In this document: positions 12,001-18,000 of the stretch, piece by piece
How the letters are laid out: each line of letters begins with the position of its first letter
Numbering within the stretch: position 1 is the first letter of the stretch
Assembly: GCA_045863395.1 (NCBI GenBank)
Contig: BTVJ01000102.1
Coordinates: 1-24,681, forward strand
DNA length: 24,681 bases
Direction of reading: 5' to 3'
From: Myxococcales bacterium
GTDB lineage: Bacteria > Myxococcota_A > UBA9042 > JABWCM01 > BTVJ01
Position numbers: made by a program

Positions 12001-15000
12001 CGCCGTCCCCAAGGTCGCCCCGAGCTCCGCCACACCGACGAAGGAGCCGTCCTCGCCGAAGGTCTGCCCGAGCGGGAGCCACCCGGTGGACCCACCCCGC
12101 GCGTCGATGCCGGCGGCCTCCATGGCGGGCATGGCGCCCGGCGTAGCGAGGTGCACCAGCGCCCCGACGCGGCTCGCTCCCGACGGGACCGCGAGGGGCG
12201 GCGAGAGCAGCCACTCCCCGTCGACCGTGAAGCCCGACGCGATGTCGGCCCGCGAGAGCGTGGACTCGGCAAACCCCGCGTGGTCACCGAAGGTTGGGGT
12301 GAGCGCCTCGTCGCCCCCTGCGGCCTCGTGGGTCGAGGGGGGCAGCACCCCATCCCCCGAAGAGTCGCAGGCTGCCAGGAGCACGAGCGCGGAGAAGACG
12401 CAGCGGAATCGGGTGGTGCGGGGCTTCATGCGTCGAAGTTCGCGCGAAACCCCCCGCGCGTCAAGCGCGTGCGCTGGCGCCCCCCAGGACGCTGCCCCCG
12501 AGCGCGCCGTGCCTCCTCGCGGCCCCGGCCTACCCCGCCTCGGCGGCGTAGTCCTCCATGGAGGCGCGGATCACCCGGAACGCCTCCTCCCGGTCGTAGA
12601 TGCTCTGGACGGCGATGGGCGCCGCCTGGTCGGGGCGGAGCTTGTAGGTGCTGAAGTAGTGGGCGAGCCGCTGCACCAGGAGGTCCGGGATGTCGCCGAT
12701 GTCGTGGGCGCCGCTCCAGAAGCGGTCGTTGTCGAGCACGGCCACGATCTTGTCGTCGGCCTCCCCGCGGTCCACCACCTTCAAGCCACCGACCACCCGC
12801 GCATTGAGCACGATCTCGGACCGGGCGATGGGCCGCTCGGACAGGACGCAGATGTCGAGCGGGTCGCCATCCCCTCGGACGCCCCCACCCACAAGGCCGC
12901 CGACCCGGTCCGCACAGTAGGTGCGCGGGATGAACCCGTACAGAGTCGGCGGGACCGACGAGCTCTCCTGGGGGCGGTCCACCCGCAGGTAGCCTGTGGT
13001 CTTGTCCACCTCGTACTTGATGAGGTCGAAGGGCGTGATCTCGATGTAGGCGTGCACCACCCGCGGCGCCTCGGGGCCGACGTCGATGCCGTGCCAGGGG
13101 TGGGGACGGAAGCGGAAGAAGGGAGTCGGGAATGCCATGGTGTACCTCCAGTGGGGCGGACCCTACCCCCTCGCGGCTCCGATGTCGAACGCGGGCTGAA
13201 CGCGCACAGACGCCGGGTCGGTGGGGCAGGCGCGCTCACAGAGGCCGCAGCCCGTGCAGGCGTCCCCCACGACGGGGCGACCGCGTCCATCGCGACGGAT
13301 GGCGGCCTCGCCGATGGGGCAGGCCACGATGCAGGCGTGGCAGGGCTCGCCGTTCCAGCGGACGCACCGGTCCTTGTCGATGACGGCCACCCCAAGGCGG
13401 ATCTCCGCCACGGGGATGGGCCGGAGCGCCCCGGAGGGGCACGCCGCCGCGCAGGGCACGTCGGGGCACAGGACGCACGGGGAGCGGCGGGGCCGCAGCA
13501 CCGGCGTCCCGATGATCGGGTCCATGGAGTCGGGCGCGGGAAACAGCGCCATGGGCGGGCAGGCGTCCACGCACTTGCCGCAGCGGAGGCAGGTGTCCAG
13601 GAACGCGACCTCCGGGAGGGCGCCCGGCGGGCGCAGGAGCCCGAAGGAGGCCGCAGAGGCCGCGGGGGCCGGTGGGGGCCGCTGCGCCTCGAAGGCCGTG
13701 ACCCCCTGCCGCACGGCGCGCAGCAGGCCCTCGAAGGCGCGCCTCCCCCCGGCTCGGAAGAAGTCGCTGCGGGTGATGCGGTCGTCGGCCATGGGAACGG
13801 GATCGTACCCGCCTCGCGCTGCGGGCGCAAAAGCACACTCTTCGCGCCACCGAGGCCTCGCACACTTTTTTCGACGACGGCCGGCGCCGTGGAGAAAGGA
13901 TGTGCGTCCCCCATCCACCGATGCCACGTGAAGGAGCGCACCCATGAGGAACTTCGCCAAGTCACTTCTGCTGTTGGCCGTGGTCACAGCGATGTCCGCC
14001 TGTGCCGGAGCCGATGACCCATCCGAGAGCCTCTCGGGCGACCTCGACCAGCTCACCGCAGAGCTGGGCGCCGAGTGCGTCACGAAAGAGGAAGCCGGCA
14101 AGTGCCTGTCCCTCTCCAACTGGAATGAGGCCGCCGCGAAGCAGTGCGCCGCGCTGGGCATGGAGCTCACCGCCTTCAAGGCCACTGCCGAGTGTGGCAG
14201 CGGCCGCGCGTCGGCCGTCATCTATACGTGCTGTCCCCCGAACCCCGACCCCTGTGAGACCATCACCCGCACGACGAAGCTGTGCCAGTCCGAGGCGACC
14301 TGGCTCGCGACCGCGACGAAGACCTGCGAGTCCAAGGGGATGATCCTCAGCGACTTCGCGGTGTCGGGCTCCTGCGGCAAGGGCCGCTGGAACACCGCCA
14401 CCTTCCGCTGCTGCCCGGACACGAGCGTCTGCTGCGCGACGGCCGCGGGACCGCAAATTCTGCCGGCCTCCAAGTGCCCGTCGGGCGCGGCGCTGCCACC
14501 GCAGATGTGCAAGTCCCCGGAGGTCTGCTGCAAGCTCCAGGACGGCTCCCTCGTGACCCTGACCGCCGACCAGTGCAAGCTCAAGGGCGGCGCCGCTGCC
14601 CCGCTCGACCTGTGCAAGCAGGAGGTCTGCTGCAAGACGTCCGCGGGCCCGCAGATCACGACCGCCGACCAGTGCCCGGCGTCCCAGGTGGTCTCCATGG
14701 ACCTGTGCAAGCCCGTCGAGGAGGTCTGCTGCAAGATCAACGGCGGCTACTTCCTGACGCCGTCCACCCAGTGCCCGACGGGGCAGACGGTGCCCATGGA
14801 CCTGTGCAAGCCCGTCGAGGAGGTCTGCTGCAAGATCAACGGCGGCTACTTCCTGACGCCGTCCACCCAGTGCCCGACGGGGCAGACGGTGCCCATGGAC
14901 CTGTGCAAGCCCGTCGACGAGGTCTGCTGCAAGATCGACGGCGGCTACTTCCTGACGCCCTCCACCCAGTGCCCGGCGGGCCAGACCGTGCCCATGGACC

Positions 15001-18000
15001 TGTGCAAGCCCGTCGAGGAGATCTGCTGCCTGCTCCCCGACGGAACGGTGCTGGTCCTGAGCGCCGATGCCTGCAAGCAGAAGGGCGGCGTCCAGACGTC
15101 CATGTCCGCCTGTGACCCGACCGTCTATGTCTGCTGCGAGACGGCCGCCGGCTACCAGGTCGTCCCCTCGACCCAGTGCCCGAACGCCCAGGTGCCCATG
15201 GACTACTGCAAGCCGAAGGAGGTCTGCTGCAAGATCAACGGCGGCTACTTCGTGACGCCGGCCACCCAGTGCCCGGCGGGGCAGGCGGTGTCCATGGACC
15301 TGTGCCAATACACGCCGTGCGACAAGGCGATCTTCGGGCAGTGCAAGGGCTTCGACTACACCGCCCAGTGCGACCCGAAGGGCTACGACTGCGGCCCCCT
15401 CGGCATCCTCGGCGATCTGAACTGCGACGGCGTCTACGAGGTCTGCCTGGCCTGCCCGCCCGGCACCCACCCGGTGGACAGCAACGGCGACGGCTGCGAG
15501 GACCTGTGCGACTGCTGCCCGGCCATCAAGTGCCCCGCCGGGACGGTGGCGACCGACACGGACGGCGACGGCTGCCCCGACACCTGCGTGAGCGTGCTGT
15601 GCGACAAGGCGATCTTCGGGCAGTGCAAGGGCTTCGACTACACCGCGCAGTGCGACCCGAGCGGCTTCGACTGCACGTCCTTCGCCATCCTCGGGGACAC
15701 GAACTGCGACGGGAAGTACGACGTGTGCATCGAGTGCCCGGCGGGGACCGTGCCCATGGACCTCGACGGCGATGGCTGCGAGGAGGTCTGCAACTGCCCG
15801 GCCGACCCCAACACGAAGTAATCAAGGATCCCGCACCCAGCGGGCCGGCGCCGCGGCCTCCCCGAGGGGCCGCGGCGCCGGAGTTCCCCTCCCGCCCCTT
15901 GACCCTCCCCCCCAAGTCCGCTAGCAATTCCGAGCGTCCGCGCCGCGGGCGCTCCCGACACCTGTCTGGCCCTGGGCCTGCTCGAGGCACCGATGATGGA
16001 TCTGTCCGCCCTCGCCACCGCGTCCGGCATGCGCCGCACGTGGGATGTACTCACCAAGGTGCCCGGAGGAAACCGGGTGTTCAGCAAGCTCCTCGGCCGC
16101 ATGGCCCCCTACACGGGGACCATCGACCCCGTGGTCGTCGACCTCCGGCCCGGCTTCGCGCGCGTCCAGATGCGCGACCGGCGCGCCGTGCGCAATCACC
16201 TGGACTCCATCCACGCCATCGCGCTGATGAACCTCGCCGAGGTGTCGAGCGGCGTCGCCATGATGGCGAGCATCCCCGACGACGCGCGGGGCATCCTGAC
16301 GGGACTGTCGATCCGCTATGGGAAGAAGGCGCGGGGGCTCCTGACCGCCGAGTGCACCTGCGAGCCGCCGGCGACCAGCGAGCGCCGCGAGGTGACCATC
16401 GAGGCGGTGATCCGCGACGAGTCGGGGGCAGAGGTCGCGCGCGCCCAGGCGAGCTGGCTCATCGGGCCGAAGAAGCGGTGAACGGCCTCGAGGTCCTCGG
16501 CTGGGTGGGCTCGCTGCTCCTCGCCATCTCCCTCTCCATGCGCAACATCTGGCGCCTGCGCCTGTGGAACCTGGCCGGGGCGACGGTCTTCGCCATGTAC
16601 GGCGCGCTGATCGGCGCGTGGCCCGTGGTGCTCCTCGACGGCTACATCGCGGCCATCGACCTCGTGCACATCTGGCGCATGAAGCGAAAGCGGGACTTCT
16701 TCGAGCTGCTCGACATCCCCTACCGGTACAACGCGTTCGTCGCGCGCTTCCTGGTGTTCCACGGCGACGACATCGCCCGCTACTTCCCGCGGTTCGTGCT
16801 CGGAGAGGTGACGACGCCGGTGATCACGCTGACGCTCAGGAACATGATGCCGGTGGGCATCTTCGTCCACGAGGTCCATGGCGACGAGGCGCTGGTCCAC
16901 CTGGACTACGTGGTGCGGGAGTACCGCGACCTGGCCAACGCCCGGCACCTGTTCCGGCGCCTCGGGGACGACCTGGCGGCCGCCGGGGTGCGGCGCATGG
17001 TGGCGCCGTCATTCCACCCGGACCACGACCGCTACCTGGGGCGCATGGGGTTCCGCAAGTTGCCCGGAGGCGAAGAGGGGCGGTCCACCTGGGAGCTCCC
17101 CCTCCCTCTCAGCGCTCCGGTTCGGTGAGGGCGCTCGTCAGCATCGTGACGTGGCGCATCTCCTCCTTGATCAGGGCGTCGAGGGGCGCGGTGTCCAGGC
17201 CCGGGGGCAGCGCCTCCTTGAGGCCCGCGTAGTAGGCGATGGCGTCCTTCTCGAAGCCGATGGCGAGGCGCAGCACGTCGTCCGCGGTCTCTCCGCCCCG
17301 GAGGACGGCCGGGTTGGCACCGAATACCGCCGCGCCGGCCAGGGCGCGCAGGTACGAGACGGCGTCCTGGTCGGCGTCGGTCCAGTCAGCGACGGGCGTC
17401 GGGCCGAGGAGCTGCGTCCGCAGCTCCTGGAAGGTCACCTCGTGGTCCTGCTCCAGCAGCGCCAGGCGATGGAAGAGCGCCCGGACGCGGTGGTCTGAGG
17501 CGGTGTCTGCCGCCTTGCGGTAGAACTCCGCGCCGTTTCTCTCGATCTGCTCGGCGATGTCGAAGACCTCGCTCGCGCTGAAGAACATGCTCATGGGTCG
17601 CTCCTGCTGCGGCGCACCGAGCGCCGACGGCCCAGGGTAGGCGCAGGGGGGACACCGGGGCAACCCAAGGCGGCGGCGGATGTTACAAACCCGCCTCCGC
17701 GGCGGTGATCTCGCGCAGGCCCCGGGTCGGGCCCGCGTTGATGAAGCGGCCGGGCACGCAGGTGGCGACGAAGGGGGCGAAGTGGCGGGTCGGGTGCTTG
17801 GCCGTGATGGTGTAGACCCCCGGCGGGACGTTGGCCCACACCACGCCCCCGTCCACCGTCGTCTCGGTCAGGGTGCGATCAGGGATGGTCAGCTCGTCGA
17901 AGTACACCGTGTCGGCGATTGGCGGGTCGGCATGGGCGGTCGCGCCTGCCACGCCGTGGGCGCCATAGGCCACGAAGTCGCCGAGGTCCAGGTCCCGCAC

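What a model noticed while it worked through the whole genome (the two positions that open the first line are those of the whole stretch)
13944..15821. Amyloid-precursor-protein copper-binding-domain (CuBD) fold as a repeat module in secreted bacterial lipoproteins
Lipoprotein g05587 carries two, and g04051 (C46:52416-53435) one, domain homologous to the E1 copper-binding domain of animal APP/APLP/APL-1. The disulfide Cys and the Trp are kept and the His pair of human APP is absent. Relatives have up to seven tandem copies, so a domain regarded as animal-specific is a bacterial surface repeat in Myxococcota.
Evidence so far: Pfam APP_Cu_bd over cut-off, E 1e-12. A profile of 37 bacterial copies finds only APP-family chains in the PDB (11 sequences, best E 8e-11, call 126). 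AlphaFold pLDDT 93; Foldseek top 14 rows all APP/APLP2/APL-1, TM 0.84-0.94, rmsd 0.9-1.6 A. Found in 11 of 301 phylum genomes, 0 of 14 controls; copies listed in call 120. relatives.tsv: 10 bacterial genomes, 9 in this phylum.
(Added by a program. Inside this text positions count along the whole contig: contig position 1 is position 1 of the stretch shown here. "Call 12" and the like, gene names such as g00115 and contig names such as C1 are that model's own, and its searches are not shown. The text may have been shortened before it was handed on; [...] marks where a part breaks off. The agent that wrote the report below was given it as the finding of a first reader that could run no searches.)

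Follow-up and report, generated by a model that had tools for sequence, protein, structure and literature searches.

The report
Bacterial cousin of Alzheimer-protein domain
A small disulfide-bonded domain known only from the animal amyloid precursor protein is a common, repeated cell-surface module in myxobacteria, where it lacks the copper site and in some species forms the outer end of a membrane sensor, which gives the animal domain a bacterial family and a testable job.

Summary
Confirmed and extended. Window 13944-15821 encodes a 625-aa lipoprotein with two 55-aa six-cysteine modules homologous to the APP copper-binding domain (CuBD). Pfam PF12924 scores 48.8 bits (cut-off 26.4). A bacteria-only profile finds 11 PDB sequences, all APP-family (E 2e-10 to 1e-5; next 1.3). 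The model superposes on APP CuBD at 0.8-1.6 A. The family is large: 146 of 150 listed relatives, 1-9 copies each, 24 of 401 phylum genomes. The His147/His151 pair is in 0 of 559 copies, so APP-type copper binding is unlikely.

New here: in one family of the phylum the module ends a single-pass anti-sigma factor in an operon ECF sigma, anti-sigma, lipoprotein (21 loci). The sensor's modules match its own lipoprotein's (up to 95% at DNA level), and one genome has swapped in another domain in both genes. This points to an exchangeable recognition module. The window gene is not in such an operon; no ligand is known. Direction of transfer is untested: I obtained no animal sequences, and the module evolves too fast for diversity to date it. 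Automatic annotation already flags these proteins; nine literature searches found no description.

The parts
13944..15821 (+). Gene for a 625-aa, 73-Cys modular lipoprotein (P0001)
   Evidence: GC3 0.955
13932..13936 (+). Ribosome-binding site AGGAG, 7 bases before the ATG
   Evidence: read from the sequence
13944..14003 (+). Signal peptide with lipobox, Cys20 the predicted lipidated residue
   Evidence: sequence, motif scan; lipidation inferred
14076..14237 (+). CuBD-like module 1 (aa 45-98; Cys 45, 54, 68, 84, 96, 97; Trp60)
   Evidence: PF12924 35.7 bits; model pLDDT 97; VIA Z 9.3, rmsd 1.2 A to APL-1 2m05
14253..14417 (+). CuBD-like module 2 (aa 104-158; Cys 104, 114, 128, 144, 156, 157; Trp120)
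   Evidence: PF12924 36 bits; VIA Z 11.3, rmsd 1.3 A, 29% identity to APP in 7mrm
14421..15311 (+). Nine tandem copies of a second, unnamed ~32-aa four-Cys repeat (beta-hairpin units); probable stalk
   Evidence: no Pfam or NCBIfam hit; model pLDDT 82.6; no fold match
15318..15812 (+). One whole and one partial copy of a ~94-aa Cys-rich module with five DxD/NxDG motifs; calcium binding inferred from the motif only
   Evidence: the same module occurs 1-4 times in P0017, P0031, P0094

Best explanation
The two modules are true homologues of the APP E1 copper-binding domain: a 55-residue strand-helix-strand-strand domain held by three disulfides. In Myxococcota the domain is a fast-evolving, exchangeable recognition module outside the cytoplasm; it binds a protein or glycan partner and does not use APP's histidine copper site. 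Shown by computation: homology, fold, export signal, loss of the ligands, modular shuffling. Inferred for the window protein: Sec export and lipidation at Cys20, disulfide formation, two modules beside the anchor, nine small repeats as a stalk, two Asp-rich modules at the far end. Inferred for relatives in family f19: an ECF sigma factor is held by the N-terminal helices of a single-pass anti-sigma factor whose far end carries 2-3 modules copied from the next gene, a lipoprotein. Sensor and lipoprotein so present the same surface; when that surface is engaged or disturbed the sigma factor is released, probably by proteolysis, and more lipoprotein is made. The ligand and the proteolysis are not shown.
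For: Homology: gap-free over 47 residues; all 21 matches at E<=0.001 are APP-family as far as listed; rmsd 0.8-0.9 A to 2fk3/2fjz; Z 9.3-11.3, next 5.7. By my hand count, the human APP residue is among the five commonest bacterial residues at 24 of 40 non-Cys columns. No copper site: His in 1 and 5 of 559 copies at the two columns, both in 0. Export: 97 of 123 non-fragment relatives have a hydrophobic stretch plus lipobox, against 108 of 1712 control frames. Shuffling: the module sits beside Lcl_C, FecR, BNR, pacifastin and other domains; it ends P0075, while 0 of 80 loci with relatives of P0075's main domain carry it. Operon: sigma adjacent in 21 of 21 picked loci, genes abutting (-17 to +2 bases), one hydrophobic segment starting near residues 49-63, lipoprotein with the module next in 19 of 21. 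Sigma with anti-sigma N-terminus: score 0.83, best control 0.00, contacts agree >=88%, partner pLDDT >=72; the mark was reached by 116 of 157 solved and 2 of 215 mismatched pairs. Matching: own lipoprotein is the best match in 15 of 19 operons; blocks of 334-466 bases are 87-95% identical between the two genes in five operons; G230 has a different domain in both genes, 54% identical. APP CuBD itself binds contactins at a site away from the copper ligands (PMC8808184, passages).
Against: No ligand, binding or expression was shown. The window gene is not in the operon: the anti-sigma profile finds nothing in this genome and 13 window neighbours give one weak hit in 45 other loci, so the recognition role is carried over from relatives. 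Few surface positions are conserved (Lys at the His151 column, 58%). Matching of adjacent genes can arise by neutral duplication or gene conversion; by mean identity the own lipoprotein ranks first in only 11 of 19, and four operons show no best-pair matching. The 21 loci were picked for hits in adjacent frames and fall into 6 clusters by sigma identity, 15 in one. The matched swap rests on one genome. Sigma/anti-sigma complexes have been solved (own knowledge), so the complex score may reflect likeness. The structure is a prediction. APP's contactin contacts His137 and Glu183 are not kept (0.9% and 6%).
Confidence: 0.6

Rival explanations
1. The domain is homologous to CuBD but is only a protease-resistant, disulfide-locked spacer. 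The match between anti-sigma factor and lipoprotein is a neutral by-product of tandem duplication.
For: Arrays of up to 9 copies with Pro-rich linkers; mean pairwise identity 29%, with little conserved beyond Cys, Trp, Ala, Gly, Leu; orthologous modules fall to 25-39% identity while the sigma factors keep 50-75%.
Against: In the anti-sigma factor the modules are terminal, beyond a Pro-rich linker of about 140-200 residues that already gives reach. The same slot holds other folded domains in G230 and G653. Terminal pairs are appended to large secreted proteins like binding modules.
Confidence: 0.25
2. The module senses or buffers copper or the redox state outside the cytoplasm, through its cysteines or another site, as proposed for APP and APL-1.
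For: Six Cys per module. The C. elegans APL-1 CuBD was reported to protect against copper toxicity (PMC3657624, passage). An ECF anti-sigma ectodomain is a natural place for a stress sensor (own knowledge).
Against: His pair in 0 of 559 copies, Met at the Met170 column in 4. The Cys occupy APP's disulfide positions. No copper-handling family appeared among 68 neighbouring ORFs of 11 loci or the window ORFs scanned (the HlyD/CusB-type adaptor there lies in an ABC-2 exporter operon).
Confidence: 0.1
3. The likeness to APP is convergence of small cysteine-rich strand-helix-strand-strand domains.
For: The domain is short, identity to APP is 25-29%, and the fold class is common (1633 chains at Z>=2).
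Against: No other Cys-rich family scores among 177,635 PDB sequences. Alignment is gap-free over 47 residues. Z 9.3-11.3 against 5.7 for the next fold. 118 of 146 relatives pass the cut-off of a Pfam model of the animal family (my count).
Confidence: 0.04
4. On origin, a separate question: the bacteria took the domain from an animal APP gene and then amplified it. I put the alternatives at 0.45 for bacteria to early animals and 0.3 for an older shared domain lost in most lineages.
For: Patchy spread (24 of 401 phylum genomes). The module reaches the ~29% identity floor within one bacterial family, so its diversity does not prove great age. No named record outside this phylum was seen.
Against: It is present in the window's class and in other classes, in many architectures, with native codon use (GC3 0.93). 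No other APP domain came along: PF02177 in 0 of 301 genomes, no APP_N, E2 or tail hit in 146 relatives. APP identity to bacterial copies equals their identity to each other.
Confidence: 0.2

Closest known systems
APP/APLP/APL-1 E1 copper-binding domain (Pfam PF12924; PDB 2fjz, 1owt, 2m05, 7mrk)
   Same: Length, six-Cys spacing, Trp150, Ala154, Leu165, Gly175 positions, fold (rmsd 0.8-1.6 A in most superpositions), location outside the cytoplasm.
   Different: No His147/His151 site; 1-9 tandem copies rather than one; no GFLD, E2, amyloid or tail domain; on lipoproteins, anti-sigma factors and secreted proteins of bacteria.
Membrane anti-sigma factors of ECF sigma factors with a C-terminal sensor domain (RseA, FecR, RsiV, and clostridial RsgI with carbohydrate-binding modules; recalled)
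   Same: For relatives only: gene directly behind an ECF sigma (TIGR02937 over cut-off), short helical N-terminus predicted to bind it, one membrane segment, outer domain; P0108 keeps a FecR domain.
   Different: The outer domain is a CuBD array copied from the next lipoprotein gene and kept alike; no Pfam or NCBIfam model covers the N-terminus. The window gene has no such part.
Microcystis viridis lectin MVL (PF12151, PDB 1zhq)
   Same: Next-best fold (Z 5.7, rmsd 2.7 A); small tandem domain also found in this phylum (6 of 141 genomes).
   Different: No profile similarity (hhalign probability 3%); other Cys spacing; its conserved Trp motifs are absent.
Other animal-like disulfide modules of myxobacterial surfaces (pacifastin, laminin EGF, TARSH_C)
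   Same: Occur in or beside the same genes; the CuBD module looks like one member of a wider toolkit.
   Different: Those are other folds; CuBD had, in the papers I saw, no relative outside the APP family.

Membership tests
APP CuBD domain (PF12924) | Score above the curated cut-off | tested here: met
   48.8 bits against 26.4; each copy alone 35.7 and 36
APP CuBD domain (PF12924) | Six Cys at the positions of APP Cys133/144/158/174/186/187, and Trp150 | tested here: met
   Both window copies; five inner Cys in 525 of 559 copies, Trp 65%
APP CuBD domain (PF12924) | One helix on a three-stranded sheet, superposable on solved CuBD | tested here: met
   Predicted model only: pLDDT 97.1, Z 9.3-11.3, rmsd 1.2-1.6 A
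APP CuBD domain (PF12924) | Reciprocal specificity: a bacterial profile finds APP and nothing else | tested here: met
   11 APP-family sequences at E<=1.3e-5, next row E 1.3
APP CuBD domain (PF12924) | Disulfide pairing 1-6, 2-4, 3-5 (pairing recalled) | not tested
   Model coordinates were not inspected; inferred from alignment
Copper-binding CuBD of vertebrate APP | His147, His151, Tyr168 ligands (ligand set recalled; positions read) | tested here: not met
   His 1 and 5 of 559, both 0; Tyr 77 of 559
Copper-binding CuBD of vertebrate APP | Binds and reduces Cu(II) | not testable with these tools
   Needs a binding assay
APP protein family | APP_N + CuBD + E2 + membrane segment + amyloid tail (10.1101/181966, passage) | tested here: not met
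   Only CuBD is present; PF02177 in 0 of 1 and 0 of 301 genomes
ECF anti-sigma factor (relatives in family f19) | Encoded directly behind an ECF sigma; N-terminal domain, one membrane segment, outer domain | tested here: met
   21 of 21 picked loci with sigma adjacent; hydrophobic segment in 20 of 20 examined
ECF anti-sigma factor (relatives in family f19) | N-terminal domain binds the sigma factor | tested here: inconclusive
   Model supports it (0.83, best control 0.00) but does not show it
ECF anti-sigma factor (relatives in family f19) | Signal-dependent release of sigma, for example by stepwise proteolysis | not testable with these tools
   Inferred from known systems
ECF anti-sigma factor (the window gene itself) | Sigma neighbour and anti-sigma domain | tested here: not met
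   No sigma gene among the window ORFs scanned; profile finds nothing in G000
MVL lectin (PF12151) | Sequence profile similarity | tested here: not met
   hhalign probability 3%; no PF12151 hit on P0001
C-type lectin fold | Sequence or fold match | tested here: inconclusive
   Not listed; only weak viral rows, E>=0.016, rmsd>10 A

The most novel reading that the evidence does not exclude
Animals built the E1 region of APP from a bacterial surface module. In myxobacteria-like bacteria that module already served as the outer domain of a single-pass receptor that releases a transcription factor on proteolysis, the logic APP follows, in an undescribed signalling design in which the sensor's outer domain is a continually refreshed copy of the lipoprotein it controls.
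Probability: 0.22. Interest if true: 0.92.

Novelty: new variant of a known kind. Interest (0 to 1): 0.76.

Why it matters
The origin of APP's domains and the normal job of CuBD are open. A published phylogeny found no related sequences in single-celled organisms (PMC3660159, passage). Hundreds of divergent bacterial copies now show which positions the fold needs and suggest that the histidine copper site is a later addition. They also offer a genetic system: closed 12-16 Mb genomes carry an operon in which the module is wired to a sigma factor, so a reporter can reveal what the domain senses. The matched sensor-lipoprotein design, with its swappable domain, is of interest by itself.

Tried and rejected
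MVL lectin ancestry: rejected at sequence level. Contamination by animal DNA: rejected; bacterial neighbours, GC3 0.955, closed genomes carry the module. A whole E1 in this phylum: PF02177 not found in those searched; an animal-trained profile may miss distant forms. A tree with animal sequences: not built; a search aimed at APP records returned only two bacterial proteins, and no listed hit was an APP. Diversity as a sign of age: rejected, the module saturates within one family (the first estimate held an alignment artefact and is superseded). ESM Atlas feature search was blank twice; its structure search gave APP-family clusters. Conserved neighbourhood for the window gene: none. Promoter and terminator scan: nothing. 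Fold of the 32-aa repeat: no match, which does not show a new fold. Expression: three runs held 5-7% of the words of locus L121; contigs of two RNA runs lie mostly on the lipoprotein gene, but transcription is not shown. The module tree was a quick tree on 59 columns with half its forks open; I use it only for the within-operon pairs.
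Full report
OBSERVATION. The ORF at 13944-15821(+) encodes 625 aa with 73 Cys. It has a ribosome-binding site, GC3 of 0.955 and a lipobox ending in Cys20. Pfam gives one family, PF12924 APP_Cu_bd, 48.8 bits against a cut-off of 26.4, E 1.1e-12, two stretches. The six-frame search of the genome finds both copies and one on C46. My own profile adds a weaker fourth copy on C14, ahead of Lcl_C domains. The protein reads: lipid anchor, two CuBD-like modules (aa 45-98, 104-158), nine ~32-aa four-Cys repeats (aa 160-456), then about 1.7 copies of a ~94-aa module with DxD/NxDG motifs. 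P0017, P0031, P0094 and loci L020, L012, L006 mix the same parts in other numbers.

IS IT HOMOLOGY? The two-module fragment alone finds APP-family chains first in the PDB (best E 4.3e-6). A profile of 43 bacterial copies finds 11 of 177,635 distinct sequences, all APP, APLP2 or APL-1, at E 2e-10 to 1.3e-5; the next row has E 1.3. The alignment has no gap over 47 residues. By my hand count, the human residue is among the five commonest bacterial residues at 24 of 40 non-Cys columns. AlphaFold2 on a bacteria-only alignment of 33 rows, without templates, gives pLDDT 97.1 and strand-helix-strand-strand twice. Foldseek has 21 matches at E<=0.001, APP-family in every row shown, with rmsd 0.8-0.9 A over 56-57 columns to the isolated domain in 2fk3 and 2fjz. 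The wide search gives Z 11.3, 10.4, 9.4 and 9.3 for APP and APL-1, then 5.7 for the lectin MVL. MVL shows no profile similarity (probability 3%). The profile finds nothing in reversed frames of the genome. I put homology at about 0.95. The model is a prediction, and the network may have learnt the APP fold.

THE FAMILY. A full scan of 1.84 billion representatives gave 193 proteins at E<=0.001. Of the 150 listed, 146 hold 1 to 9 modules; four long proteins hold none and were dropped before the Pfam scan. By my count 135 of the 146 hit PF12924 at E<=0.001 and 118 pass its cut-off; none hits another APP domain. Leaving out 23 likely fragments, 97 of 123 have a hydrophobic stretch with a lipobox, against 108 of 1712 control frames. 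In genomes: 15 of 401 of the phylum by Pfam, 0 of 14 controls; 24 of 401 by my profile; 18 of 251 in another order; 48 of 301 in family f19, including single-contig genomes of 12-16 Mb. These are lower bounds, as only 15-26 candidates a genome were scored. Named records place the family in Myxococcota, Myxococcales and Polyangium. I saw no named record outside this phylum.

COPPER. Among 559 copies under 90% identical, the columns of APP His147 and His151 hold His in 1 and 5 copies and never both; the Tyr168 column holds Tyr in 77 and the Met170 column Met in 4 (the ligand set is recalled). Conserved are the Cys, Trp (65%), Ala (81%), Gly and Leu, that is the core. The one polar position of note is Lys at the His151 column (58%). 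APP-type copper binding is unlikely. In APP the same domain binds contactins through main-chain strand pairing at a site apart from the copper ligands (PMC8808184, passages), so a recognition role has a precedent, though the side chains named there are not kept.

WHAT THE SURROUNDINGS SAY. The window gene stands alone: a divergent 4Fe-4S protein, pyrophosphatase and amidase-GH114 gene on one side, DUF4442 and an ABC-2 exporter on the other. Thirteen neighbours give one weak hit in 45 other loci. Relatives are more telling. Eight hits begin with two helices and a membrane segment in place of a lipobox. I fetched 21 loci of 20 genomes of family f19, picked for hits in adjacent or long frames. 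In 21 of 21 an ECF sigma gene directly precedes such a gene, the genes abutting; in 19 of 21 a lipoprotein gene with 1-6 modules follows. The middle protein has an N-terminus of about 50 residues, a basic patch, one hydrophobic segment, a Pro-rich linker and 2-3 terminal modules; the basic patch suggests N-in, C-out (inference). Sigma with this N-terminus scores 0.83 against a best control of 0.00, contacts agreeing in at least 88% and partner pLDDT at least 72; that mark was reached by 116 of 157 solved and 2 of 215 mismatched pairs, and like complexes are known, so it supports binding and does not show it. The loci form only 6 clusters at 75% sigma identity, 15 in one.

THE MATCH BETWEEN SENSOR AND LIPOPROTEIN. 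Against lipoproteins of operons with under 75% sigma identity, the anti-sigma modules match their own lipoprotein best in 15 of 19 operons by best pair (up to 94% without the Cys columns) and in 11 of 19 by mean. In five operons 334-466 bases at the two 3' ends are 87-95% identical, in one 428 bases 75%; in L087 and L140 no such block was seen. A search with the anti-sigma N-terminus in 191 genomes gave 15 matches: eight known loci, four that look like noise, one short frame without a whole sigma gene nearby, and two with the same sigma but another outer domain. In G230 the next lipoprotein carries a 54% identical copy of that other domain. In G653 the domain is TARSH_C (E 1.4e-9) and the contig ends. 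So the slot is exchangeable, and in the one complete case it was exchanged in both genes. A second context, lipoprotein then FHA-sigma54 activator, membrane protein and membrane Ser/Thr kinase, recurs in G571, G645, G215 and G733; such genes are abundant in these bacteria (own knowledge), so this weighs less.

HOW IT MOST LIKELY WORKS. Shown by computation: fold, homology, export signals, loss of the His site, shuffling, operon, matching. Inferred: disulfides form after export; the module is a binding surface; in the operon the sensor and its lipoprotein face the same ligand, or each other, or the same handling machinery; engagement frees the sigma factor, probably by stepwise proteolysis as in other membrane anti-sigma factors (own knowledge), and raises lipoprotein output. 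For the window protein the modules would be binding units beside the anchor of a long beaded surface protein. I give recognition 0.6, passive spacer 0.25, metal or redox sensing 0.1, convergence 0.04. The likeness to APP, a single-pass protein cut outside and then inside the membrane, is an analogy: the topology is reversed (C-out here, N-out in APP) and no other part is homologous.

ORIGIN. Not resolved. Bacterial copies average 29% identity to each other and the window copies are 25-29% identical to APP and APL-1, so APP lies within the family's range. Orthologous modules already fall to 25% when their sigma factors are 50-65% identical; diversity therefore dates nothing. I obtained no animal sequence and built no joint tree. 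The GFLD profile finds nothing in 301 genomes. Two unchecked notes of this scan report a CuBD-like six-Cys domain in a CPR bacterium (e1-1081814) and a GFLD homologue in small bacteria and archaea (e1-868024). If right, both halves of E1 have prokaryotic kin; I did not test them beyond.

WHAT IS IN PRINT. PMC3660159 (passages) dates the family to the rise of animals and found no related sequences in single-celled organisms. 10.1101/181966 (passages) places it in the metazoan lineage. Nine searches listed no paper on bacterial CuBD or on this operon; most hits I judged by title and start of abstract. I read passages of PMC8808184, PMC3657624, PMC8153327, PMC7589751, PMC10796103 and PMC7826278, and only the listing of PMC8999054. 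The library lacks most subscription journals. The supplementary ECF group tables of PMC7826278 were not read and may describe this sigma group. Pipelines do see the match: PF12924 is precomputed for 15 of 16 hits, and JGI auto-named P0005 after it.

VERDICT. A real, strongly supported homologue of a domain held to be animal-specific, here a bacterial repeat without the copper site. It is a known domain in a new kingdom and new architectures, one of which ties it to a testable signalling circuit. The same loci hold other animal-like disulfide modules, so it is one case of a wider pattern, which tempers the surprise. New variant of a known kind; interest 0.76.

Noticed in passing
L262:3285-6013 (G230:C11) and L263:4203-6078 (G653:C398): The same ECF sigma/anti-sigma pair with other outer domains: an unnamed ~150-aa domain repeated in the next lipoprotein (54% identical), and a TARSH_C domain, a family named after an animal protein. 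The 'sensor copies its lipoprotein' design may be a system in its own right.
   Followed up: partly
window 14421-15311: Nine copies of an unnamed ~32-aa four-Cys repeat with no Pfam, NCBIfam or fold match; at least 17 copies in L020, and a paralogue on C122:2106-5048.
   Followed up: partly
window 15318-15812: Unnamed ~94-aa Cys-rich module with Asp-rich motifs that recall thrombospondin type 3 calcium repeats (recalled); 1-4 copies in P0017, P0031, P0094; a partial likeness on C1:80982-83000.
   Followed up: partly
L030:6514-8532 (G000:C14): One CuBD-like module and one short Cys repeat fused ahead of two Lcl_C (DUF1566) stretches.
   Followed up: partly
L031:7702-12831 (G000:C46): An alpha-2-macroglobulin gene lies directly upstream of the second CuBD gene; a reprolysin-like protease gene is nearby.
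   Followed up: no
L095:6130-8826 (G249:C35): Lipoprotein with two CuBD-like modules followed by five pacifastin-like repeats, next to an FG-GAP/laminin-EGF gene.
   Followed up: no
L088, L149, L150, L152: Recurrent unit: CuBD lipoprotein, FHA-sigma54 activator, membrane protein, membrane Ser/Thr kinase.
   Followed up: partly
P0056, P0075, P0149: Three ~740-aa secreted proteins with different or distant main domains share a C-terminal Cys repeat plus CuBD pair; organism unnamed, possibly outside Myxococcota.
   Followed up: partly
L009, L017, L046, L048: Variant modules that lost the second and fourth Cys together, which fits their pairing as one disulfide.
   Followed up: no
L004 (G099:C86), L139 (G809:C87), L068 (G430:C31): CuBD genes split between two frames or ORFs; assembly error or decay not told apart.
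   Followed up: no
window 9847-12429 (-): 860-aa ORF fusing an N-acetylmuramoyl-L-alanine amidase with a GH114 glycoside hydrolase.
   Followed up: no
window 1370-7503: HTH plus IrrE-like peptidase gene, Y2-type transposase and SNF2 helicase: possibly a mobile or defence patch.
   Followed up: no
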